From: a virus
Lineage: Duplodnaviria; Heunggongvirae; Uroviricota; Caudoviricetes
Direction: 5' to 3' (one strand)
IMG/VR virus record: IMGVR_UViG_2627853868_000010
Length of the DNA stretch: 11,563 nucleotides
Shown: positions 1 through 11,563 of the stretch, in pieces
Layout: every line of letters starts with the position of its first letter
How positions within the stretch are numbered: the first letter of the stretch is position 1
Position numbers and translations under genes: made by a program
Notes under the pieces: generated by a model
What the model saw: only the letters and a program-made list of their open reading frames with translations
Told to the model about the DNA's origin: nothing
The model's database searches: none

Positions 1-303
1 TTAACGCGTATTTTTCAGCGACTCCTGTGCAAAATACGCTGTTGCTTTTTTTAATATATCTCGCTCAAGGCGAGCTTCATTTAACGCCTTACGCAGTTGC
101 AGAATTTCAGATTCCAGTTCAGCCACCGTGCGGGAACCAGGAGTACCGAGCCCTTTTCTGGCGGCGGTAACCCATTGTCCTAAAGTGCCTTCAGGAAGGG
201 ATAATCGGGAAGCGCCTTCACTGATCGAAAGTTGATTTTCAAGAACCGTTCTGACAGCTTCGGCTTTGAACTCTTTAGAGTAACGTTGGTTTTTTCTGCT
301 CAT
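1..303 (-). CDS. IS3-family transposase OrfA (helix-turn-helix plus leucine-zipper region)
   Basis: 100-aa ORF MSRKNQRYSKEFKAEAV...ILKKATAYFA, identical to the OrfA at 3758-4060; the C-terminal ILKKATAYFA motif is typical of IS3-family OrfA. Confidence 0.85.
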   Translation of the reverse strand: MSRKNQRYSKEFKAEAVRTVLENQLSISEGASRLSLPEGTLGQWVTAARKGLGTPGSRTVAELESEILQLRKALNEARLERDILKKATAYFAQESLKNTR

Positions 304-367
304 TATTAGCTCCTTCTGATGCCATTCTATTTCAGGAAGGAGTGTCCGTTAAACTCAGGCTACCTCA
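1..367 (-). mobile_element. IS3-family insertion sequence (IS600-like), partial copy; the rest of the element lies left of the window
   Basis: Positions 1-367 mirror 3694-4060 in reverse complement: same terminus TGAGGTAGCCTGAGTTTAACGGACACTCC (element end at 367) and an identical 100-aa OrfA. The window starts exactly at the OrfA stop codon. Confidence 0.85.
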
Positions 368-1380: not shown

Positions 1381-1959
1381 TCACTGAATGCGGTTACCAA
1401 AGTAAAACTCAGGCTGATATTCACGTATCAGCGTTTTTTCTTCTTCCTCCTGCTCACGCTTTTTGCGCTTACATGCCTGTAGCTCCCTCCCCTTCTCGCT
1501 GGCACTTATTTGATATTGCTCTTTACGGCGGGAAAAATCCTGTAATGCACCCCACGGGATACCATAAGTCCCCGTTTTTCTGATACCTGGTATCACATTT
1601 CTGAATACCCAGTTACTGAAACGATGAGCAAATGTGCCAGGCGTCGTTGCTTTGCGGCTGCGGGCTATTAGTTTGTAGAAACCTGACTCAGAGATAATTC
1701 TCATATTCTGATTTCCTCCTGGGGTGTAAGTTAAATTTACTCCCTTTTCATCATCATCAAGCATCTGCAACGCCGTACGCGAATTGGTTAGTTCCAGCGC
1801 AGCACAAACATCTTTTGCAACAAACCACGGATCGCCGTTCAGATACACCACACGAACGTTCACACTATCAAAGCGCAGAACGACGAGATCACGAATATCG
1901 CAGAATTTTTTCACTGGACGAGCGTACCCCTTGCCCGTCACGGCAATATTTTTATTCAT
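1381..1959 (-). CDS. Bro-N domain protein (phage antirepressor-like)
   Basis: 192-aa ORF; the N-terminal region VVYLNGDPWFVAKDVCAALELTNSRTALQMLDDDEKGV...MRIISESGFYKLIARSRKA...FRNVIPGIRKTGTY matches the Bro-N signature (EPWFVAKDV, DEDEKG, ISESGLY, IRKTG); C-terminal part is charged. Confidence 0.75.
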   Translation of the reverse strand: MNKNIAVTGKGYARPVKKFCDIRDLVVLRFDSVNVRVVYLNGDPWFVAKDVCAALELTNSRTALQMLDDDEKGVNLTYTPGGNQNMRIISESGFYKLIARSRKATTPGTFAHRFSNWVFRNVIPGIRKTGTYGIPWGALQDFSRRKEQYQISASEKGRELQACKRKKREQEEEEKTLIREYQPEFYFGNRIQ

Positions 1960-1974
1960 CGCGTTTTTACCTTA

Positions 1975-2002
1975 TAGACAAAAAACCCCTCGTGATGAGG
2001 GG
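1975..2002 (-). terminator. Candidate intrinsic terminator between alpA and the Bro-N gene (minus strand)
   Basis: On the minus strand, hairpin CCCCTC-ATCAC-GAGGGG (plus 1986-2002) followed by TTTTTGTCTAT, lying between the alpA stop (2016) and the Bro-N start (1959). Confidence 0.45.
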
Positions 2003-2015
2003 CATTATTTACTGG

Positions 2016-2273
2016 TTATTGCTGTTTTGTTTTTCCAGGTTTCCATCCAGGATGCCACTCACCACGGATCCATGCCTGAACCTCTGAAAGTCGATACCCT
2101 GCAGCACGTTCACCGATCTTGATACGTCGCGGGAATTTACCTGCCTGCTCCATTTTCCAGCGTGTTGAGTTTGCCAGCGTGGTAAGTGCTATGCACTCTT
2201 TTTCACGAATGAACCGATCAATGTCCTTCATTGTGCGCAAATCGTTTTCATCAACAAGAGAATAAATTGCCAT
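2016..2273 (-). CDS. alpA: AlpA-family prophage transcriptional regulator (HTH, excisionase-like)
   Basis: 85-aa ORF; ALTTLANSTRWKMEQAGKFPRRIKIGERAAGYRLSEVQAWI matches the AlpA/Phage_AlpA pattern. Its ATG at 2273 is 1 nt from the integrase stop (TGA at 2275-2277). Confidence 0.8.
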   Translation of the reverse strand: MAIYSLVDENDLRTMKDIDRFIREKECIALTTLANSTRWKMEQAGKFPRRIKIGERAAGYRLSEVQAWIRGEWHPGWKPGKTKQQ

Positions 2274-2427
2274 ATCACACCACCTCTTTATTAAGCTCGA
2301 TAACGTTGTTGTTAAATCCTGCTATCGTATTAAGGTAATTAACCCACATATTAAGCACCTCAAGTTTTTTCTTTATATGCCTGCTTTTATTGTAAACACC
2401 AGCAACCCCTTTCACTTTATGACCTAA

Positions 2428-2436
2428 AAGAAGTTC
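2428..2436. repeat. 9-bp target-site duplication AAGAAGTTC of IS1 (left copy)
   Basis: Identical 9-mer at 2428-2436 and 3205-3213, directly flanking IS1. Confidence 0.9.
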
Positions 2437-2451
2437 GGTAATGACTCCAAC

Positions 2452-2955
2452 TTATTGATAGTGTTTTATGTTCAGATAATGCCCGATGACTTTGTCATGC
2501 AGCTCCACCGATTTTGAGAACGACAGCGACTTCCGTCCCAGCCGTGCCAGGTGCTGCCTCAGATTCAGGTTATGCCGCTCAATTCGCTGCGTATATCGCT
2601 TGCTGATTACGTGCAGCTTTCCCTTCAGGCGGGATTCATACAGTGGCCAGCCATCCGTCATCCATATCACCACGTCAAAGGGTGACAGCAAGCTCATAAG
2701 ACGCCCCAGCGTCGCCATAGTGCGTTCACCGAATACGTGCGCAACAACCGTCTTCCGGAGCCTGTCATACGCGTAAAACAGCCAGCGCTGGCGCGATTTA
2801 GCCCCGACGTATCCCCACTGTTCGTCCATTTCCGCGCAGACGATGACGTCACTGCCCGGCTGTATGCGCGAGGTTACCGACTGCGGCCTGAGTTTTTTAA
2901 GTGACGTAAAATCGTGTTGAGGCTAACGCCCATAATGCGTGCAGTTGCCCGGCAT
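2452..2955 (-). CDS. insB: IS1 InsB frame (made as the InsAB' fusion by -1 frameshift)
   Basis: The track ORF 2452-2829 encodes the canonical InsB C-terminal 125 aa ([16 protein letters not shown]...NIKHYQ). The frame extends upstream to about 2955. An in-frame TAG replaces the Trp codon of HYGRW, but this lies upstream of the frameshift site and need not inactivate InsAB'. Confidence 0.7.
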
Positions 2956-3149
2956 CCAACGCCATTCATGGCCATATCAATAATTTTCTGGTGCGTACCG
3001 GGTTGAGAAGCGGTGTAAGTGAACTGCAGTTGCCATGTTTTACGGCAGTGAGAGCAGAGATAGCGCTGATGTCCGGCAGTGCTTTTGCCGTTACGCACCA
3101 CCCCGTCAGTAGCTGAACAGGAGGGACAGCTGATAGAAACAGAAGCCAC
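2874..3149 (-). CDS. insA: IS1 InsA (transposition repressor / N-terminal part of InsAB' transposase)
   Basis: 91-aa [43 protein letters not shown]... (zinc-finger CPSC/CSHC); ends in the A6C frameshift window. Differs from the other copy at several residues (e.g. GVSLNT vs GVGLNT). Confidence 0.9.
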
Positions 3150-3204
3150 TGGAGCACCTCAAAAACACCATCATACACTAAATCAGTAAGTTGGCAGCAT
3201 CACC

Positions 3205-3213: not shown

Positions 3214-3757
3214 GACAATATAAGGATCCGCCCCCATATCATTAAGCGTAGTGGAAAATGTGCGCCTGAAATCATGTATGCACCACAAGCCATTAGTATC
3301 ATGACCAAGACGCCTGCATATTCTGTTTGCAGCCCCTGTTATTGTCGCCCTTTGCAAAGCACAACCGACAACATAACCGCGATTTTTTGTTTCTGCGTAA
3401 AGATTAACGATCCATTGTTTTATTCCGTCAGGAACAGGCCTTACTATAGCCTCCTTGTTTTTGCTGTGCTCTTTTGGGACTGTCCATACCCAGTTTTTTA
3501 AATCCCATTCGTCCCAGGTGGATAGCCTCGCCTCCTGCTGTCGGCAACCAAACACCAGGCAGATAACCATTATTCTTCGGTTATATATTGATGACAGAGT
3601 TAGCAAATTATTACCGTAAGCATAAGACCATACATCAGCGGTTTCATTGATATTAAGAACGCGATCCCTTATACCGGATGAGCGCCCGACATATGAGGTA
3701 GCCTGAGTTTAACGGACACTCCTTCCTGAAATAGAATGGCATCAGAAGGAGCTAATA

Positions 3758-4060
3758 ATGAGCAGAAAAAACCAACGTTACTCTAAAGAGTTCAAAGCCG
3801 AAGCTGTCAGAACGGTTCTTGAAAATCAACTTTCGATCAGTGAAGGCGCTTCCCGATTATCCCTTCCTGAAGGCACTTTAGGACAATGGGTTACCGCCGC
3901 CAGAAAAGGGCTCGGTACTCCTGGTTCCCGCACGGTGGCTGAACTGGAATCTGAAATTCTGCAACTGCGTAAGGCGTTAAATGAAGCTCGCCTTGAGCGA
4001 GATATATTAAAAAAAGCAACAGCGTATTTTGCACAGGAGTCGCTGAAAAATACGCGTTAA
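3758..4060 (+). CDS. IS3-family transposase OrfA
   Basis: 100-aa ORF identical to the one at 1-303; AGGAG RBS upstream of the ATG. Confidence 0.9.
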   Translation: MSRKNQRYSKEFKAEAVRTVLENQLSISEGASRLSLPEGTLGQWVTAARKGLGTPGSRTVAELESEILQLRKALNEARLERDILKKATAYFAQESLKNTR

Positions 4061-4095
4061 TCGAACAATGGCGACAACAATTTCCCATTGAAGCG

Positions 4096-4914
4096 ATGTG
4101 TCAGGTATTTGGTGTATCCAGGAGCGGTTATTACAACTGGGTACAGCATGAACCCTCAGACAGAAAACAAAGTGATGAGCGGCTAAAACTGGAGATTAAG
4201 GTGGCACATATCCGCACTCGCGAAACATATGGAACCCGGCGGCTCCAGACGGAGCTGGCAGAGAATGGCATCATCGTTGGTCGTGACCGACTGGCACGTC
4301 TTCGTAAGGAGCTAAGGCTACGCTGTAAGCAGAAACGCAAGTTCAGAGCGACTACGAACCCGAACCACAATCTGCCAGTTGCGCCAAATCTGCTGAACCA
4401 GACGTTCGCTCCTACAGCACCAAATCAGGTCTGGGTGGCGGACCTGACGTATGTTGCCACACAGGAGGGATGGTTGTACCTCGCTGGCATCAAAGATGTT
4501 TATACGTGCGAAATTGTCGGCTACGCCATGGGAGAGCGCATGACAAAAGAGCTGACAGGTAAAGCCCTGTTTATGGCGCTCAGGAGCCAGCGCCCACCTG
4601 CCGGGCTAATCCACCACTCTGATCGAGGTTCACAGTACTGCGCATACGATTACCGGGTCATACAGGAGCAGTCTGGTCTGAAAACATCAATGTCGCGTAA
4701 AGGTCACTGTTACGACAACGCTCCGATGGAAAGCTTCTGGGGAACGCTGAAAAATGAGAGCCTGAGCCACTATCGTTTTAATAACCGGGATGAAGCCATC
4801 TCAGTAATACGGGAATACATTGAGATTTTCTACAATCGTCAGCGTCGTCACTCTCGTCTGGGGAATATCTCCCCGGCAGCCTTCAGGGAAAAATATCATC
4901 AGATGGCTGCTTAA
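4096..4914 (+). CDS. IS3-family transposase OrfB (DDE integrase-like catalytic domain; probably made as OrfAB by -1 frameshift)
   Basis: 272-aa ORF with DDE-type motifs (VWVADLTYV, HHSDRGSQY, CYDNAPMESFWGTLK); its frame begins just after the OrfA stop. Confidence 0.85.
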   Translation: MCQVFGVSRSGYYNWVQHEPSDRKQSDERLKLEIKVAHIRTRETYGTRRLQTELAENGIIVGRDRLARLRKELRLRCKQKRKFRATTNPNHNLPVAPNLLNQTFAPTAPNQVWVADLTYVATQEGWLYLAGIKDVYTCEIVGYAMGERMTKELTGKALFMALRSQRPPAGLIHHSDRGSQYCAYDYRVIQEQSGLKTSMSRKGHCYDNAPMESFWGTLKNESLSHYRFNNRDEAISVIREYIEIFYNRQRRHSRLGNISPAAFREKYHQMAA

Positions 4915-4938
4915 AAAAAGAACAAATGGTAGTGTCCG

Positions 4939-6327
4939 CTATTGCCAGTACACCTCACAGTACATTGACCAGGATTTCGAGCTGTTATTTTTCTCAATTC
5001 GCAGAGCTTTATTGCCGCTGTCATCAACCAGTGTGCGTCTGCCATACATACCGTCCCAGCCATAAGGTTTCAGCTGATTGTCTGTAGCTTTTTTGGCATC
5101 GTAAAAAATTACAGACTCTGAGGTGGTAACCGGCCTGTCTGGAACAACCACCCCGGCAGTACCATTAACAAACGCAGAAGACTTACCCGCGCAGCTCAGA
5201 ATCGCCGTTGCCAGACGGTCGGAAATAATCCCACGGCGAGCCCATGAACTGAAATGGCTCGCCCTGTCCTGTGACGTCCAGGTGGCTGAGCTGTCACGCC
5301 ATTTCGAACCGTAATAACCGATACCCGGAATGTCCGGGTCTTCTTCCGGTTTGTTCGTCGGCACATTCACCCCGTTCTCATCGGTCATGAACGGTACGAA
5401 ATGGATATTCTTTTCCGTTTTATTTTTATAGCTGCCGTACACCGTCTGGTACGTGGATTCGTTCTTCTGCTTCCAGAAATACGTCGTGTCCCCGCATATC
5501 CAGGGAACACCGCCAGCAGAGCCACCGACGCACTGGCCTGCCATATCCGCCAGGTCTGCACGGAATTTATCAACCAGCGCACCAAACTGTGCGGCATGAT
5601 TTGCCGGCGTACCGCCAAAATCAAATTCCCCCTGCATCCACACCACGGCAAACAGCACATTTTTCGGGTTCTTCTCCAGTGCCGCTTTTGTTCGACCGAT
5701 AAGGTCCTTATACAGCGGCTTGTCCACACCCCAGCGGGTTGAATTCTCCGAGGCACCACTCGCGTCACTGTATGTGCCATCAGCTCCGGTGGTGAACGCT
5801 GAACCACCACGACAGCATGGAACCAGCAGAATGCCCGCATTCGCCGGTATAAACGGCAGCAGTTTTTTGGCGATATGCAGCCCCTGCCCCACGGTTCCGT
5901 ACTGCCCCTTTGACAGGTCCGCTTTCGGATGGTTAAGACGGCTCATGTCCTGCACATCATGCAGACAATGGTCCGCCGGAATGATGTCGTTATATTTGCA
6001 TGCTGCACCGCCCGGTGTCACCGTACTGCGACGCGCCAGTTGCTTAATACGCGGGTCCGGACGGTCATATGTCCCCGGCAGCGGAAGGCCTTCACCATAC
6101 GACATGCCGTTTGACTGCCCTGCCAGAACCACAACAAAGTAATACTCCGGGTCGCTGGTGGCGCTGATTACTGCACCTTCTGCTGCAATCGCCTGCATCA
6201 GAGTATAAGGGGTTATGGCCACCGGACTACCAAACGGCTGCCAGCCCTCTTTCAGTTTATGTGTCAGCTTTTCCGCAAGATCTGACGGCGACGCCGCCCT
6301 GACAACATCATAGTGTTTAAAAGCCAT
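4939..6327 (-). CDS. nanS: Prophage sialate O-acetylesterase (NanS-p-like; DUF1737 N-domain plus SGNH/DUF303 esterase domain), 3'-truncated by IS600
   Basis: 462-aa ORF with GGAGG RBS. Motifs VLAGQSNGMSYGEGLPLP, RIKQLARRSTVTPGG, YGTVGQ, LLPFIP, VPCCRGGSAFT, SHFSSWARRGIISDR match NanS/YjhS-type esterases as I recall them. The last 6 codons (CEVYWQ) and the stop are read from the IS600 end (4939-4957). Confidence 0.8.
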   Translation of the reverse strand: MAFKHYDVVRAASPSDLAEKLTHKLKEGWQPFGSPVAITPYTLMQAIAAEGAVISATSDPEYYFVVVLAGQSNGMSYGEGLPLPGTYDRPDPRIKQLARRSTVTPGGAACKYNDIIPADHCLHDVQDMSRLNHPKADLSKGQYGTVGQGLHIAKKLLPFIPANAGILLVPCCRGGSAFTTGADGTYSDASGASENSTRWGVDKPLYKDLIGRTKAALEKNPKNVLFAVVWMQGEFDFGGTPANHAAQFGALVDKFRADLADMAGQCVGGSAGGVPWICGDTTYFWKQKNESTYQTVYGSYKNKTEKNIHFVPFMTDENGVNVPTNKPEEDPDIPGIGYYGSKWRDSSATWTSQDRASHFSSWARRGIISDRLATAILSCAGKSSAFVNGTAGVVVPDRPVTTSESVIFYDAKKATDNQLKPYGWDGMYGRRTLVDDSGNKALRIEKNNSSKSWSMYCEVYWQ

Positions 6328-6816: not shown

Positions 6817-6893
6817 TGGCGCGTTGTACTGGATTCGAACCAGTGACCGATTGCTTAGAAGGCAATTGCTCTGTCCGGCTGAGCTAACAACGC
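6817..6893 (-). tRNA. argO: tRNA-Arg (anticodon UCU), prophage-encoded
   Basis: Minus-strand 77-nt cloverleaf GCGTTGT-TA-GCTC-AGCCGGACA-GAGC-A-ATTGC-CTTCTAA-GCAAT-CGGTC-ACTGG-TTCGAAT-CCAGT-ACAACGC-G-CCA. Perfect 7-bp acceptor stem, encoded CCA. Gene symbol assigned by position in the cluster. Confidence 0.85.
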
Positions 6894-6906
6894 ATGATGC
6901 AGATAA

Positions 6907-6983
6907 TGGACCGCCATCGGGGACTTGAACCCCGCGCAGCCAGCTTCGAAGGCTGGCGCTCTTTCCTGATGAGCTAATGGCGG
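6907..6983 (-). tRNA. argN: tRNA-Arg (anticodon UCG), prophage-encoded
   Basis: Minus-strand 77-nt cloverleaf CCGCCAT-TA-GCTC-ATCAGGAAA-GAGC-G-CCAGC-CTTCGAA-GCTGG-CTGCG-CGGGG-TTCAAGT-CCCCG-ATGGCGG-T-CCA. Gene symbol assigned by position in the cluster. Confidence 0.8.
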
Positions 6984-6990
6984 TATGTGA

Positions 6991-7066
6991 TGGTGGCCCT
7001 TGCTGGATTTGAACCAGCGACCTGGCGATTATGAGTCGCTCGCTCTCACCACTGAGCTAAAGGGCC
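6991..7066 (-). tRNA. ileZ: tRNA-Ile2 (anticodon CAU, ileX-like; reads AUA after lysidine modification), prophage-encoded
   Basis: Minus-strand 76-nt sequence GGCCCTTTAGCTCAGTGGTGAGAGCGAGCGACTCATAATCGCCAGGTCGCTGGTTCAAATCCAGCAAGGGCCACCA, near-identical to E. coli ileX as I recall it; anticodon loop CTCATAA. Confidence 0.85.
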
Positions 7067-7106: not shown

Positions 7107-8124
7107 TCATCCGTTCTGGCTGACTAAATCCTGTACTTCCCGAACCGTCTGCTCAAAACGTTCAGTCTCCAGCTCAACGCCAATTGCACGACGCCCGAGC
7201 GCCAGTGCCGCTTTCACTGTCGAACCCGACCCCATGAAAAAATCTGCAATCAGGTCACCCGGACGACTGCTAGCGCTGATTATCTGCTGCAGCATTTCTG
7301 CCGGTTTTTCGCACGGATGTTTCCCGGGATAGAACTGCACCGGTTTATGCGTCCACACATCGGTATACGGCACCTGCACCGTCACGCCAAAATACCGCCG
7401 CAGATGTTTATATTCACTCAGCAGCTCCGCATACTGCCGGTTCAGTGAGGTATACGTATCCACCAGCTGGTGGTGGAGCTTTTCCAGTTCACCACGCCGA
7501 TGCTTCTCTTCTGCCACCCGGGCAAACAGCGCCTGTAATTTCAGATAATCGCTTTCATTCGGCAACTGCCACTGACTGGCACTGAACCAGTGCGACACCA
7601 TGTTTTTCTTTCCTGTGGCATCTGCAATCTGTTTTGCCGTTATCCCCAGGGCAGCTCGCGCATCACGAAAGTAAGAAATCAGCGGGGCCATCACATGCTG
7701 TTTCAGTGCACTGCCCTTCGCCGCATACCCGGCATCTTTCGGACGATACGGCCCCTGATAATGTTCCGCGAACAGAATGCGCTCTGTGGCGGGGAAATAC
7801 GCCCGCAGGCTTTCCTTGTTGCATCCGTTCCAGCGTCCGGACGGCTTCGCCCAGATAATATGGTTCAGCACACTGAAGCGTTCACGCATCATGATTTCGA
7901 TATCAGATGCCAGGCGATGACCACAGAACAGGTAAAGACTTCCGGCAGGTTTCAGCACCCGCCAGAACTGCGCCAGACACTGGTCCAGCCACTTCAGGTA
8001 ATCATCGTCGCCCTTCCACTGGTTATCCCAGCCCTCAGGCTTCACTTTAAAGTACGGCGGGTCCGTGACTATCAGGTCAACAGAATTTTCGGGTAACGAC
8101 CAGATAAATTCCAGGCAGTCGGCG
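7107..8124 (-). CDS. DNA N6-adenine/N4-cytosine methyltransferase (beta-class; DPPY precedes FxGxG), prophage Dam-like orphan MTase; native 5' end removed by IS1
   Basis: Native coding sequence starts at the IS1 junction with ADCLEFIWSLPENSVDLIVTDPPYF (motif IV) and ends with DLIADFFMGSGST...GRRAIGVELE (motif I). No native start codon remains; the frame stays open upstream through IS1/IS2 sequence to 8282. Confidence 0.8.
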
Positions 8125-8142
8125 GGTAATGACTCCAACTTA

Positions 8143-8147
8143 CTGAT
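8143..8147. repeat. 5-bp target-site duplication CTGAT of IS2 (left copy; right copy at 9479-9483)
   Basis: CTGAT immediately flanks both IS2 ends; both copies lie within IS1 terminal sequence. Confidence 0.85.
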
Positions 8148-8238
8148 TAGACTGGCCCCCTGAATCTCCAGACAACCAGTATCACTTAAATAAGTGATAG
8201 TCTTAATACTAGTTTTTAGACTAGTCATTGGAGTACAG

Positions 8239-8604
8239 ATGATTGATGTCTTAGGGCCGGAGAAACGCAGACGGCGTACCACACAGGAAAAGATCGCAAT
8301 TGTTCAGCAGAGCTTTGAACCGGGGATGACGGTCTCCCTCGTTGCCCGGCAACATGGTGTAGCAGCCAGCCAGTTATTTCTCTGGCGTAAGCAATACCAG
8401 GAAGGAAGTCTTACTGCTGTGGCCGCCGGAGAACAGGTTGTTCCTGCCTCTGAACTTGCTGCCGCCATGAAGCAGATTAAAGAACTCCAGCGCCTGCTCG
8501 GCAAGAAAACGATGGAAAATGAACTCCTCAAAGAAGCCGTTGAATATGGACGGGCAAAAAAGTGGATAGCGCACGCGCCCTTATTGCCCGGGGATGGGGA
8601 GTAA
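8239..8604 (+). CDS. insC: IS2 transposase OrfA (InsC)
   Basis: [56 protein letters not shown]... matches IS2 InsC as recalled; ATG at 8239. Confidence 0.9.
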
Positions 8605-9467
8605 GCTTAGTCAGCCGTTGTCTCCGGGTGTCGCGTGCGCAGTTGCACGTCATTCTCAGACGAACCGATGACTGGATGGATGGCCGCCGCAGTCGTCACA
8701 CTGATGATACGGATGTGCTTCTCCGTATACACCATGTTATCGGAGAGCTGCCCACGTATGGTTATCGTCGGGTATGGGCGCTGCTTCGCAGACAGGCAGA
8801 ACTTGATGGTATGCCTGCGATCAATGCCAAACGTGTTTACCGGATCATGCGCCAGAATGCGCTGTTGCTTGAGCGAAAACCTGCTGTACCGCCATCGAAA
8901 CGGGCACATACAGGCAGAGTGGCCGTGAAAGAAAGCAATCAGCGATGGTGCTCTGACGGGTTCGAGTTCTGCTGTGATAACGGAGAGAGACTGCGTGTCA
9001 CGTTCGCGCTGGACTGCTGTGATCGTGAGGCACTGCACTGGGCGGTGACTACCGGCGGCTTCAACAGTGAAACAGTACAGGACGTCATGCTGGGAGCGGT
9101 GGAACGCCGCTTCGGCAACGATCTTCCGTCGTCTCCAGTGGAGTGGCTGACGGATAATGGTTCATGCTACCGGGCTAATGAAACACGCCAGTTCGCCCGG
9201 ATGTTGGGACTTGAACCGAAGAACACGGCGGTGCGGAGTCCGGAGAGTAACGGAATAGCAGAGAGCTTCGTGAAAACGATAAAGCGTGACTACATCAGTA
9301 TCATGCCCAAACCAGACGGGTTAACGGCAGCAAAGAACCTTGCAGAGGCGTTCGAGCATTATAACGAATGGCATCCGCATAGTGCGCTGGGTTATCGCTC
9401 GCCACGGGAATATCTGCGGCAGCGGGCTTGTAATGGGTTAAGTGATAACAGATGTCTGGAAATATAG
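8562..9467 (+). CDS. insD: IS2 transposase OrfB (InsD; DDE catalytic domain)
   Basis: 301-aa [33 protein letters not shown]...WLTDNGSCY...[12 protein letters not shown], matching IS2 InsD as recalled; overlaps insC in the -1 frame. Confidence 0.9.
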
Positions 9468-9979
9468 GGGCAAATCCACTGATAGTGTTTTATGTTCAGA
9501 TAATGCCCGATGACCTTGTCATGCAGCTCCACCGATTTTGAGAACGACAGTGACTTCCGTCCCAGCCTTGCCAGATGTTGTCTCAGATTCAGATTATGTC
9601 GCTCAATGCGCTGAGTGTAACGCTTGCTGATAACGTGCAGCTTTCCCTTCAGGCGTGATTCATACAGCGGCCAGCCATCCGTCATCCATACCACGACCTC
9701 AAAGGCCGACAGCAGGCTCAGAAGACGCTCCAGTGTGGCCAGAGTGCGTTCACCGAAGACGTGCGCCACAACCGTCCTCCGTATCCTGTCATACGCGTAA
9801 AACAGCCAGCGCTGACGTGATTTAGCACCGACGTAGCCCCACTGTTCGTCCATTTCAGCGCAGACAATCACATCACTGCCCGGTTGTATGCGCGAGGTTA
9901 CCGACTGCGGCCTGAGTTTTTTAAGTGACGTAAAACCGTGTTGAGGCCAACGCCCATAATGCGTGCACTGGCGCGACAT
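9392..9979 (-). CDS. insB: IS1 InsB (copy 2) with its stop codon lost to the IS2 insertion; the ORF reads 31 extra codons into IS2
   Basis: 195-aa ORF ...[44 protein letters not shown]...NIKHYQ followed by [28 protein letters not shown] read from the IS2 right end. The native InsB part is 9479-9979. Confidence 0.8.
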
Positions 9980-10173
9980 CCGACGCCATTCATGGCCATA
10001 TCAATGATTTTCTGGTGCGTACCGGGCTGAGAGGCGGTGTAAGTGAACTGTAGTTGCCATGTTTTACGGCAATGAGAGCAGAGATAGCGCTGATGTCCGG
10101 CAGTGCTTTTGCCGTTACGCACCACGCCTTCAGTAGCGGAGCAGGAAGGACATCTGATGGAAATGGAAGCCAC
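9898..10173 (-). CDS. insA: IS1 InsA (copy 2, divergent isoform)
   Basis: 91-aa [43 protein letters not shown]...; differs from the copy at 2874-3149 at several residues. Confidence 0.9.
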
Positions 10174-10228
10174 GCAAGCACCTTAAAATCACCATCATAC
10201 ACTAAATCAGTAAGTTGGCAGCATTACC

Positions 10229-10476
10229 CGCTCGACGAGTGGAAACCAAAACGGTTCAGTCTCCCAATAACAAACACTACCCTGGTGAAATACGGAAAAC
10301 TAGGATACATCGTTCCAAGACCACAAAAAATTCGTGGGCGTTGGCTGATAGATCGCCGAGCAGTATTTGTTGGGCCTGGTGAAACGGGAATTGCGCCGGA
10401 AATTCATACTGGCGATGATGATGCACTGAAGGAGATTTTAACTCATGTCACCGAGGCCACAAAAAAACAGCACTGA
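10229..10476 (+). CDS. xis: Lambda-type excisionase (Xis)-like, 5'-truncated at the IS1 junction
   Basis: Native sequence from 10229 reads (P)LDEWKPKRFSLPITNTTLVKYGKLGYIVPRPQKIRGRWLIDRRAVFV..., which aligns with lambda Xis (MYLTLQEWNARQRRPRSLETVRRWVRECRIFPPPVKDGREYLF) as recalled. About 4 N-terminal codons and the start are missing. The 3' end overlaps the int start as in lambda. Confidence 0.55.
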
Positions 10477-11563
10477 CGTAGCCGGTCTTTACGAAAAGTT
10501 TGATCGCAGAACTGGCAGAGTTTACTACCAGTATAAAAATCCTGTGACTGGAAAATTTCACGGACTCGGAACAGACAAAGGTAAGGCAGAAAAAATCGCT
10601 TCCACAGCCAATCAGCGAATAGCTGCAGCAGAAGCTGAATATTTCATGCGCAAAATTGATGAAAGTCCGTCAGCAACAAAACGTCGGGGTATCAGATTAA
10701 AGGCATGGGTTGATCGATATCTGAAAATACAGGACACGCGACTGAAAAATGGAGATATTGCAGCTACAACTCACAAAGAAAAAACTCGAATGGCTGCATA
10801 CCTAGTTTCCCGTCTGGGAAACCACCCATTGAAAGAACTGGAAGTAAGAGACTTTGCATTAATACTGGATGAGTGGCTGGATAAAGACATGGTCAGCACA
10901 GCGAGAGTAAATCGTGGATTATGGGTTGATATTTATAAAGAAGCACAGCATGCAGGGGAAGTTCCTCCTGGATGGAATCCTCCGGAGGCTACCCGTAAAC
11001 CGATCCCTAAAGTAACCAGAGCCAGGCTCACCATGGAAGACTGGCAAAAAATTTACAATGCAACGCCTGAAAAACACTTTATCCGTAACGCAATGCTTCT
11101 TGCGATTGTTACTGGTCAGCGCCGTGATGACATTTGCCACATGCGTTTTTCAGATGTGTGGAACGAACACTTGCATATCACCCAGGGAAAAACCGGAATG
11201 CGTCTGGCGTTACCGCTTACACTACGCTGTGATGCCATTGGGATAACGTTAAAAGAAGTTATTGATGGGTGCCGAGACAGAATATTAAGTCCATATCTAA
11301 TCCATAGTCGGCACCAGAAACAACCGAAGCCGATGAGTAAAGACAACCTGAGCGACTACTTTGCCAAAGCACGGGATCTGGCTGGGATAATTCCACCAGC
11401 AGGAAAAACTCCGCCAACATTTCATGAACAACGCTCTCTATCAGAACGGCTGTACCGTGCACAGGGTATCGATACAAAAACATTACTAGGACATAAAGTC
11501 CAGGCAACCACCGATCGCTATAACGATACTCGAGGTCAGGAATGGGTTAAGCTGGTTATTTGA
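10445..11563 (+). CDS. int: Lambda-family tyrosine integrase (site-specific recombinase), complete
   Basis: 372-aa ORF with AGGAG RBS. N-terminal YYQYKNPVTGKFHGLGTDK, central LAIVTGQRRDDICHMRFSDV, and C-terminal PPTFHEQRSLSERLY...LLGHKVQATTDRYNDTRGQEWVKLVI match lambda/HK022 Int (R, H-x-x-R, LLGH, catalytic Y) as recalled. The window ends at its stop codon. Confidence 0.9.
   Translation: MSPRPQKNSTDVAGLYEKFDRRTGRVYYQYKNPVTGKFHGLGTDKGKAEKIASTANQRIAAAEAEYFMRKIDESPSATKRRGIRLKAWVDRYLKIQDTRLKNGDIAATTHKEKTRMAAYLVSRLGNHPLKELEVRDFALILDEWLDKDMVSTARVNRGLWVDIYKEAQHAGEVPPGWNPPEATRKPIPKVTRARLTMEDWQKIYNATPEKHFIRNAMLLAIVTGQRRDDICHMRFSDVWNEHLHITQGKTGMRLALPLTLRCDAIGITLKEVIDGCRDRILSPYLIHSRHQKQPKPMSKDNLSDYFAKARDLAGIIPPAGKTPPTFHEQRSLSERLYRAQGIDTKTLLGHKVQATTDRYNDTRGQEWVKLVI

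What the first reader, a model, noticed from the sequence alone, without database searches (positions are those of the whole stretch)
8125..10228. Nested insertion: IS2 inside the IS1 terminal repeat, which also extends InsB
IS2 inserted 23 bp inside the IS1 end with a clean 5-bp duplication (CTGAT), splitting the IS1 inverted repeat from the body. It also replaced the InsB stop codon, so the IS1 InsB frame reads 31 extra codons into IS2. This IS1 copy has probably lost one functional end and carries an altered transposase C-terminus.
Basis: seen in the sequence. Interest (0 to 1): 0.4.

Follow-up and report, generated by a model that had tools for sequence, protein, structure and literature searches.

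The report
IS2 nested inside an IS1 end
An intact IS2 jumping gene has landed inside the terminal repeat of an IS1 jumping gene in a decayed Shigella boydii prophage; this is ordinary, but IS2 has hit the same few bases of IS1 independently in other strains.

Summary
The structure is real. IS2 (8148-9478, 1331 bp, + strand) lies between two CTGAT copies (8143-8147, 9479-9483). It sits inside the right terminal repeat of a minus-strand IS1. Joining the tip (8125-8142) to the body (9479-10228) gives exactly 768 bp, and this is 768/768 identical to an intact IS1 in a sister strain.

One detail is wrong. The InsB frame reads 28 extra codons into IS2, not 31, giving 195 aa with a stop at 9392-9394.

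IS2 is intact: 5 mismatches to K-12 IS2A and identical proteins. IS1 keeps insA, the A6C frameshift site and the whole DDE domain.

The window is 100% identical to a Shigella boydii-lineage contig. The same junctions occur at the same potC-side prophage remnant in seven more assemblies, including CDC 3083-94. This points to one old, inherited event with no sign of later movement. "Lost a functional end" is plausible but unproven, because the 23-bp repeat and its IHF core motif survive on the tip.

In passing, three independent E. coli lineages carry IS2 in an IS1 terminal repeat. The sites are the same or 4 bp away, the orientation is the same, and all fall within the IHF consensus. This suggests a hot spot.

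Overall this is ordinary and of low interest.

The parts
8125..8147 (-). Detached right-end tip of IS1. It holds IS1 positions 746-768: 18 unique bp (8125-8142) plus the outer CTGAT copy. It carries the displaced InsB stop codon (TAA, 8140-8142 on the minus strand).
   Evidence: 23/23 identical to the right end of intact IS1 copies. Tip plus body equals 768 bp.
8143..8147 (.). Left copy of the 5-bp IS2 target-site duplication, CTGAT.
   Evidence: Intact IS1 copies carry a single CTGAT here.
8136..8148 (-). IHF core consensus (WATCARNNNNTTR, here AATCAGTAAGTTG) retained on the tip. The W position is supplied by the first base of IS2. The IS2 target duplication lies inside this motif.
   Evidence: The window has 4 matches against 0.86 expected, and all four lie at the four IS1 ends.
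8148..9478 (+). Complete IS2 (IS3 family), 1331 bp, with its own terminal inverted repeats.
   Evidence: Gap-free alignment to K-12 IS2A with 5 mismatches. 1331/1331 identical to the IS2 of E. coli VL7S7. Inverted-repeat arms 8157-8189 / 9438-9470.
8239..8604 (+). IS2 orfA (insC), 121 aa. The A6G frameshift motif lies at 8556-8562.
   Evidence: 100% amino-acid identity to K-12 InsC1.
8562..9467 (+). IS2 orfB (insD), 301 aa, integrase-core transposase domain.
   Evidence: 100% amino-acid identity to K-12 InsD1. ORF listed.
9479..9483 (.). Right copy of the IS2 target-site duplication, CTGAT.
9479..10228 (-). Body of IS1 (positions 1-750), an IS1F-like variant. The left inverted repeat lies at 10206-10228.
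   Evidence: 91% identical to IS1A, 99.5% to the E. coli TD225-C4 copy, 100% to the CP026866.1 copy.
9898..10173 (-). IS1 insA, 91 aa, intact. The A6C frameshift motif lies at 9916-9922.
9392..9979 (-). insB frame extended by 28 codons into IS2, antisense to the end of insD. It encodes 195 aa with a new stop TAA at 9392-9394. The Pfam IS1 DDE domain is complete over residues 37-167.
10205..10217 (+). IHF core consensus at the intact left end of the nested IS1.
7107..8124 (-). Left flank: 5'-truncated phage DNA methyltransferase gene from a Stx-phage-like late region. It abuts the IS1 tip. The adjacent 9 bp, CAGTCGGCG, do not match the other flank.
   Evidence: Pfam N6_N4_Mtase. E. coli prophage matches. 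Flank comparison.
10229..10476 (+). Right flank: excisionase gene lacking its first 22 nt, followed by the integrase (10445-11563). The adjacent 9 bp are CGCTCGACG, so IS1 has no target duplication.

Best explanation
One IS2 copy-out/paste-in insertion hit IS1 positions 746-750 (ATCAG on the IS1 strand, CTGAT on the + strand). These bases lie in the IHF-binding part of the right terminal repeat of an IS1F-like IS1. The event happened in an ancestor of a Shigella boydii lineage and has been inherited vertically since.

Shown:
- IS2 is complete and looks transposition-competent.
- IS1 keeps insA, its frameshift site and the whole DDE domain.
- The IS1 transposase frame now carries a 28-aa tail encoded antisense in IS2.
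- The right 23-bp repeat sits 1.3 kb from the body, with IS2 sequence replacing the native inner flank.
- This IS1 also marks a deletion joint. It links a late-region methyltransferase gene directly to a truncated xis-int, with no 8-9-bp duplication.

Inferred:
- The nested IS1 is a decaying, effectively immobile relic.
- IS2 landed here because the IHF-bent IS1 end is a favoured IS2 target.
For: - Anatomy and reference alignments.
- The intact sister copy is 768/768 identical to tip plus body and has an 8-bp duplication.
- The window is 11563/11563 identical to AMJS01000078.1 and 99.9% colinear with seven more assemblies, including CP001063.1.
- All three junctions are conserved across those assemblies.
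- The composite-specific ORF occurs at one place in complete genome CP026762.1.
- One strain has a 132-bp deletion inside the nested IS1 next to IS2.
- The flanks match different parts of lambdoid prophages and xis lacks 22 nt.
- Hot-spot support: three further independent IS2 insertions in IS1 repeats, at the same site or 4 bp away and in the same orientation. None was found in the opposite orientation.
- All these sites lie inside the IHF core motif.
- IS2 is reported to prefer bent targets (PMC3299598), and IHF sites at both IS1 ends are cited in PMC11043490.
Against: - Immobility rests on absence of evidence. Only a few genomes could be checked for extra copies, and only through one gene-call look-up.
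- The 23-bp repeat and the IHF core survive, so movement driven in trans is not excluded.
- The hot-spot inference rests on four events. A mutation-accumulation study found no clear IS2 target motif (PMC5009759), although short reads cannot score insertions inside repeats.
Confidence: 0.85

Rival explanations
1. The 2104-bp IS1::IS2 unit is still a working transposon. Its left repeat and the detached 23-bp right repeat are recognised by InsAB' made in trans by the many other IS1 copies, or by its own tailed InsAB', so the end is displaced rather than lost.
For: - The full 23-bp repeat and the IHF core are intact on the tip.
- IS1 transposase works in trans and moves a larger mini-IS1 bounded only by IS1 ends (PMC12903888).
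- Intact IS1 copies of identical sequence are active in the lineage.
- From memory, unverified here: deletion studies (Gamas, Galas & Chandler 1985) put the minimal IS1 end at about 21-25 bp.
Against: - The unit sits at one locus in all eight assemblies.
- Its specific ORF is found at one place in a complete genome.
- The nested junction is absent from 5,426 complete E. coli genomes, from plasmids, and from the genome and metagenome scans.
- The mini-IS1 in PMC12903888 kept about 63 bp at the left end and about 130 bp at the right, so it did not test a 23-bp end.
Confidence: 0.15
2. The tip and the body come from two different IS1 copies. They were brought together by recombination between IS2 copies or by repeat misassembly, not by a single IS2 insertion.
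For: - The region is full of repeats: two IS1, two IS600-like copies and one IS2 in 11.5 kb.
- SNPs between strains cluster inside the IS elements.
- The IS1 itself lacks a target duplication.
Against: - Tip plus body equals exactly 768 bp and is 768/768 identical to an intact copy.
- There is a perfect 5-bp duplication, of which intact copies hold a single copy.
- The junctions are identical in eight assemblies, including several complete genomes.
Confidence: 0.03
3. The recurrence of IS2 in the IS1 repeat reflects IS2 transposase recognising a short sequence (around CTTACTGAT), or simple chance, rather than IHF-induced bending.
For: - IS2 is also found at ...TTACTGAT| in a Salmonella plasmid outside IS1, and at ...GCTGAT| inside an IS1 body in a S. 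dysenteriae plasmid. Both hits were selected by BLAST extension, so they are biased.
- The E. coli IS1A right repeat reads CTTATTGAT, and no IS2 insertion was found in it.
Against: - No IS2 target motif emerged from 58 mapped duplications (PMC5009759).
- Two different 5-bp targets, CTGAT and CTTAC, are used within the same IHF core.
- Chance expectation is well below one event. This is my estimate from IS counts: at most about 0.1 for the two sites, even if every IS2 place were an independent event.
Confidence: 0.3

Closest known systems
IS1 (IS1 family), IS1F-like variant common in Shigella and some E. coli
   Same: Reconstructed length is 768 bp. It has about 23-bp terminal repeats, insA plus insB' with an A6C -1 frameshift site, a Pfam DDE_Tnp_IS1 domain, and an IHF core motif at both ends.
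   Different: The right repeat is split from the body by IS2. The InsB/InsAB' protein carries 28 extra residues. This copy has no 8-9-bp target duplication because it sits at a deletion joint.
IS2 (IS3 family, IS2 group), e.g. IS2A of E. coli K-12
   Same: Length is 1331 bp with identical termini and a 5-bp target duplication. It has orfA/orfB with an A6G frameshift, and the proteins are 100% identical to K-12 InsC/InsD.
   Different: Only five silent or non-coding substitutions. The target is another IS rather than a host gene.
Nested (IS-within-IS) insertions in IS-rich genomes such as Shigella
   Same: One IS interrupts another, creating chimeric transposase ORFs. Other Shigella IS1 InsB proteins with foreign C-terminal tails exist (P0019 from S. 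boydii CDC 3083-94 and P0033 from S. flexneri).
   Different: Here the insertion is within the terminal repeat itself, at the IHF core. The same spot is hit independently in E. coli VL7S7, ZF34 and 2018-02-2CC.
Composite or mini-IS1 elements mobilised in trans (Tn9-like, the mini-IS1 of PMC12903888)
   Same: Foreign DNA is bounded by an IS1 left end and a correctly oriented IS1 right repeat.
   Different: The right end is reduced to 23 bp with a non-native inner flank. No second copy of the unit was found.

Membership tests
IS1 family (IS1) | Element of about 768 bp with about 23-bp imperfect terminal inverted repeats | tested here: met
   Tip plus body equals 768 bp. Repeat arms 8122-8148 / 10205-10231 are 89% complementary. 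The reconstruction is 768/768 identical to an intact copy.
IS1 family (IS1) | insA and insB' frames joined by an A6C -1 frameshift, with a DDE_Tnp_IS1 catalytic domain | tested here: met
   InsA is 91 aa and intact, and A6C lies at 9916-9922. PF03400 matches at E=2e-74 and covers profile positions 1-131 of 131.
IS1 family (IS1) | 8-9-bp target-site duplication flanking the element | tested here: not met
   The flanks are CAGTCGGCG and CGCTCGACG. This does not argue against IS1 identity. The copy sits at a deletion or recombination joint. The other IS1 in the window (2437-3204) has AAGAAGTTC on both sides.
IS1 family (IS1) | Ability to transpose, with both ends functional | not testable with these tools
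   Only indirect evidence is available: a single locus in eight assemblies.
IS3 family, IS2 | 1331-bp element with IS2 termini (TAGACTGG...CAAATCCA) and imperfect inverted repeats | tested here: met
   Gap-free alignment to curated IS2A with 5 mismatches. Repeat arms reported.
IS3 family, IS2 | 5-bp target-site duplication | tested here: met
   CTGAT at 8143-8147 and 9479-9483. Uninterrupted IS1 copies hold one CTGAT at this point.
IS3 family, IS2 | orfA/orfB with an A6G programmed -1 frameshift and an rve (DDE) domain | tested here: met
   InsC and InsD are 100% identical to the K-12 proteins and A6G lies at 8556-8562. The same gene is flagged PF00665 (rve) in sister loci.
Composite transposon bounded by IS1 ends | The unit is found at more than one locus with its own 8-9-bp duplication | tested here: not met
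   No second copy was found. Coverage of Shigella genomes was limited.

The most novel reading that the evidence does not exclude
The IHF-binding core of the IS1 terminal repeat (IS1 positions about 12-24) is a preferred, orientation-specific landing site for IS2. One common enterobacterial IS would then recurrently target and split the ends of another. This would be inter-element interference, probably guided by IHF-induced bending.
Probability: 0.4. Interest if true: 0.35.

Novelty: already known. Interest (0 to 1): 0.15.

Why it matters
As described, this is routine. Two textbook insertion sequences are nested in an IS-riddled Shigella prophage remnant, and the arrangement is already present, though not remarked on, in public genomes.

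It matters slightly for annotation. The 195-aa "IS1 transposase" and the 373/391-aa "methylase" ORFs are chimeras.

The one point worth following up is the recurrent, same-orientation IS2 insertion into the IHF core of IS1 ends. If real, it gives a concrete and testable example of target choice by DNA bending for IS2, for which no sequence motif is known. It would also be an example of one IS disabling another.

Tried and rejected
- Searching 5,426 complete E. coli genomes for the exact nested junctions and for both IS1/flank junctions found none.
- The plasmid collection had none.
- Exact-pattern scans of species-representative genomes and of metagenome contigs had none.
- Exact look-ups of the 195-aa InsB-tail ORF and the 391-aa methylase chimera were not on record. 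The source was found only through the neighbouring 462-aa esterase gene.
- A homology search with the 195-aa ORF found no protein with the same tail, only other tailed InsB variants.
- Several BLAST hits that extended a few bases past the IS2 end (L004-L006, L013, L015, L017, L018) turned out to be chance flank similarity, not IS1.
- I considered that ZF34 and 2018-02-2CC share a transposed composite. I rejected this because their IS2 copies differ at 57 positions and their IS1 copies at 41.
- The classical papers on IS1 end requirements (Mahillon & Chandler 1998; Prentki 1987) are not in the library. The minimal-end length therefore rests on memory.
- Literature searches found no description of IS2 nested in IS1 repeats.

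Full report
**Observation**

Reading the region and comparing it with references confirms the anatomy. IS2 occupies 8148-9478. It is 1331 bp and aligns without gaps to the curated IS2A mobile element of E. coli K-12 MG1655, with 5 mismatches and identical termini. Its InsC (8239-8604) and InsD (8562-9467) proteins are 100% identical to the K-12 proteins, and the A6G frameshift motif is intact at 8556-8562. It is also 1331/1331 identical to an IS2 in E. coli VL7S7.

CTGAT flanks IS2 at 8143-8147 and 9479-9483. Removing IS2 and one CTGAT joins 8125-8142 to 9479-10228 and gives exactly 768 bp. This reconstruction aligns gap-free to K-12 IS1A with 68 mismatches (91.1%), so it is an IS1F-like variant. 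It has 4 mismatches to an intact copy in E. coli TD225-C4. It has no mismatch over 768 bp to an intact copy, with an 8-bp duplication GAAAATCT, in sister strain CP026866.1. The segment is the IS1 right end.

**Coding consequences**

The last InsB codon (Q167, CAG, 9481-9479) is retained and the native TAA is displaced to 8140-8142. The frame continues for 28 codons, not 31, antisense through the end of IS2 to TAA at 9394-9392. This gives the 195-aa ORF 9392-9979. InsA (9898-10173) and the A6C motif (9916-9922) are intact. The Pfam IS1 DDE domain is complete over residues 37-167. The transposase therefore gains a tail and loses nothing.

**Source and age**

None of 5,426 complete E. coli genomes, the plasmid collection, the species-representative genomes or the metagenome contigs contains the nested junction. 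A look-up of the neighbouring 462-aa esterase gene found the locus in 17 contigs. The window is 11563/11563 identical to AMJS01000078.1. It is 99.9% colinear with seven more assemblies, including CP001063.1. CP001063.1 has the same 4,615,997-bp contig length as the longest contig carrying the Shigella boydii CDC 3083-94 protein P0019.

All three junctions are conserved in these assemblies: methyltransferase|tip|IS2, IS2|body and IRL|xis. A composite-specific 125-aa ORF occurs at a single place in complete genome CP026762.1. One strain has lost 132 bp of the nested IS1 next to the IS2 right end, between CTGA repeats. This is one old event, inherited vertically, with no sign that the composite has moved. 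Intact IS1 copies of the same sequence have made new insertions in the lineage.

**Context**

This IS1 has no 8-9-bp duplication. Its flanks are CAGTCGGCG and CGCTCGACG. On the left is a 5'-truncated phage DNA methyltransferase gene, next to a tRNA-Arg/Arg/Met cluster typical of Stx-phage late regions. On the right is an excisionase gene missing its first 22 nt, followed by the integrase of a potC-side prophage. The orientations fit a simple deletion of the whole early region. The cause would be either an IS1-mediated adjacent deletion or recombination between two IS1 copies. The order of this deletion relative to the IS2 insertion cannot be determined.

**Is the end lost?**

The tip keeps the full 23-bp repeat. 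A scan for the IHF core consensus WATCARNNNNTTR finds four matches in the window against 0.86 expected, and all four lie at the four IS1 ends. The tip copy (8136-8148) is preserved because IS2's first base supplies the W position. Recent work shows InsAB' acts in trans and moves a larger mini-IS1 (PMC12903888). That construct kept much longer ends, however. My recollection that about 21-25 bp suffices could not be checked. The inner flank is replaced and no second copy exists. I therefore rate immobility as likely but unproven.

**Recurrent targeting**

E. coli VL7S7 has IS2 in the left repeat of an IS1A, at the mirror-equivalent site, with the same CTGAT duplication. E. coli ZF34/ZF31 and 2018-02-2CC have IS2 4 bp further out in the left repeat, with duplication CTTAC.

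The last two are independent of each other. They lie at different loci, their IS2 copies differ at 57 positions and their IS1 copies at 41. Each composite is bounded by its own 9-bp IS1 duplication.

In all four events the IS2 left end faces the IS1 tip. A query for the opposite orientation found only a chance look-alike. Both target pentamers lie inside the IHF core.

Using IS counts, a uniform model predicts at most about 0.1 such events even if every IS2 place were independent. IS2 is reported to favour bent targets (PMC3299598). No sequence motif emerged from 58 mapped IS2 insertions (PMC5009759). An IHF-bent hot spot is a reasonable hypothesis, but it rests on only four events.

**Verdict**

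This is a correctly spotted but ordinary nested insertion of two textbook elements, already present in public Shigella genomes. The codon count needs correcting from 31 to 28. The functional inference about the lost end is plausible but not demonstrated.

Noticed in passing
L003 3002-5105; L011 and L012 2601-4704: Three independent E. coli lineages (VL7S7; ZF34/ZF31; 2018-02-2CC) carry IS2 inside the left terminal repeat of IS1. The sites are the same or 4 bp further out (duplications CTGAT or CTTAC), the orientation is always the same, and all fall inside the IHF core motif. This is a possible IS2 hot spot.
   Followed up: partly
window 8116-8124 and 10229-10237: The nested IS1 has no 8-9-bp target duplication. 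It joins a truncated late-region methyltransferase gene directly to an xis lacking 22 nt plus int. An IS1-associated deletion seems to have removed the prophage early region.
   Followed up: partly
window 2437-3204: A second IS1, 98.7% identical to K-12 IS1A, on the minus strand, with a clean 9-bp duplication AAGAAGTTC. It is inserted in a phage-integrase remnant. Its insB frame has a stop at codon 11, upstream of the A6C site, so InsAB' may be unaffected.
   Followed up: partly
window 1-367 and 3694-4960; L024: Two IS600-like IS3-family copies (orfA 100 aa, orfB 272 aa) lie in inverted orientation and are 100% identical over the shared 367 bp. In CP026762.1 (L024) the segment between them is inverted relative to the window, which indicates an IS-mediated inversion polymorphism.
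   Followed up: partly
L020 (versus window 1776-2435): Assembly PTES01000002.1 lacks 660 bp immediately next to the right end of the first IS1. This looks like an IS1-adjacent deletion.
   Followed up: no
L023 2846-2849, 7506-8273 and 9480-10247: CP026866.1 has a 132-bp in-frame deletion inside the nested IS1, starting next to the IS2 right end. It also has two extra strain-specific IS1 insertions, one of them inside the IS600-like copy. IS activity in this lineage is therefore ongoing.
   Followed up: partly
window 8095-10260 versus L020-L027: Seven of the eight differences between the window and L021 fall inside the nested IS1::IS2, which is only about 19% of the window. This suggests gene conversion among IS copies or polishing errors in repeats of the draft assembly.
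   Followed up: no
window 6817-7066 and 4939-6327: A tRNA-Arg(tct)/Arg(tcg)/Met cluster and a DUF1737-SASA esterase gene flank the position where related E. coli prophages carry stx2 or terB. The window has no toxin genes there.
   Followed up: no
L007-L010: In several E. coli chromosomes and plasmids an IS2 right end lies only 5-30 bp outside an IS1 right end. In L007 the IS2 duplication CACAG directly abuts the IS1 tip. The query design biases this sample.
   Followed up: no
P0019, P0033, P0068, P0082: Other Shigella and E. coli InsB proteins of the same IS1 variant carry different foreign C-terminal tails, starting 6-12 codons before the native end. The IS1 right-end region is therefore interrupted repeatedly by other elements.
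   Followed up: no
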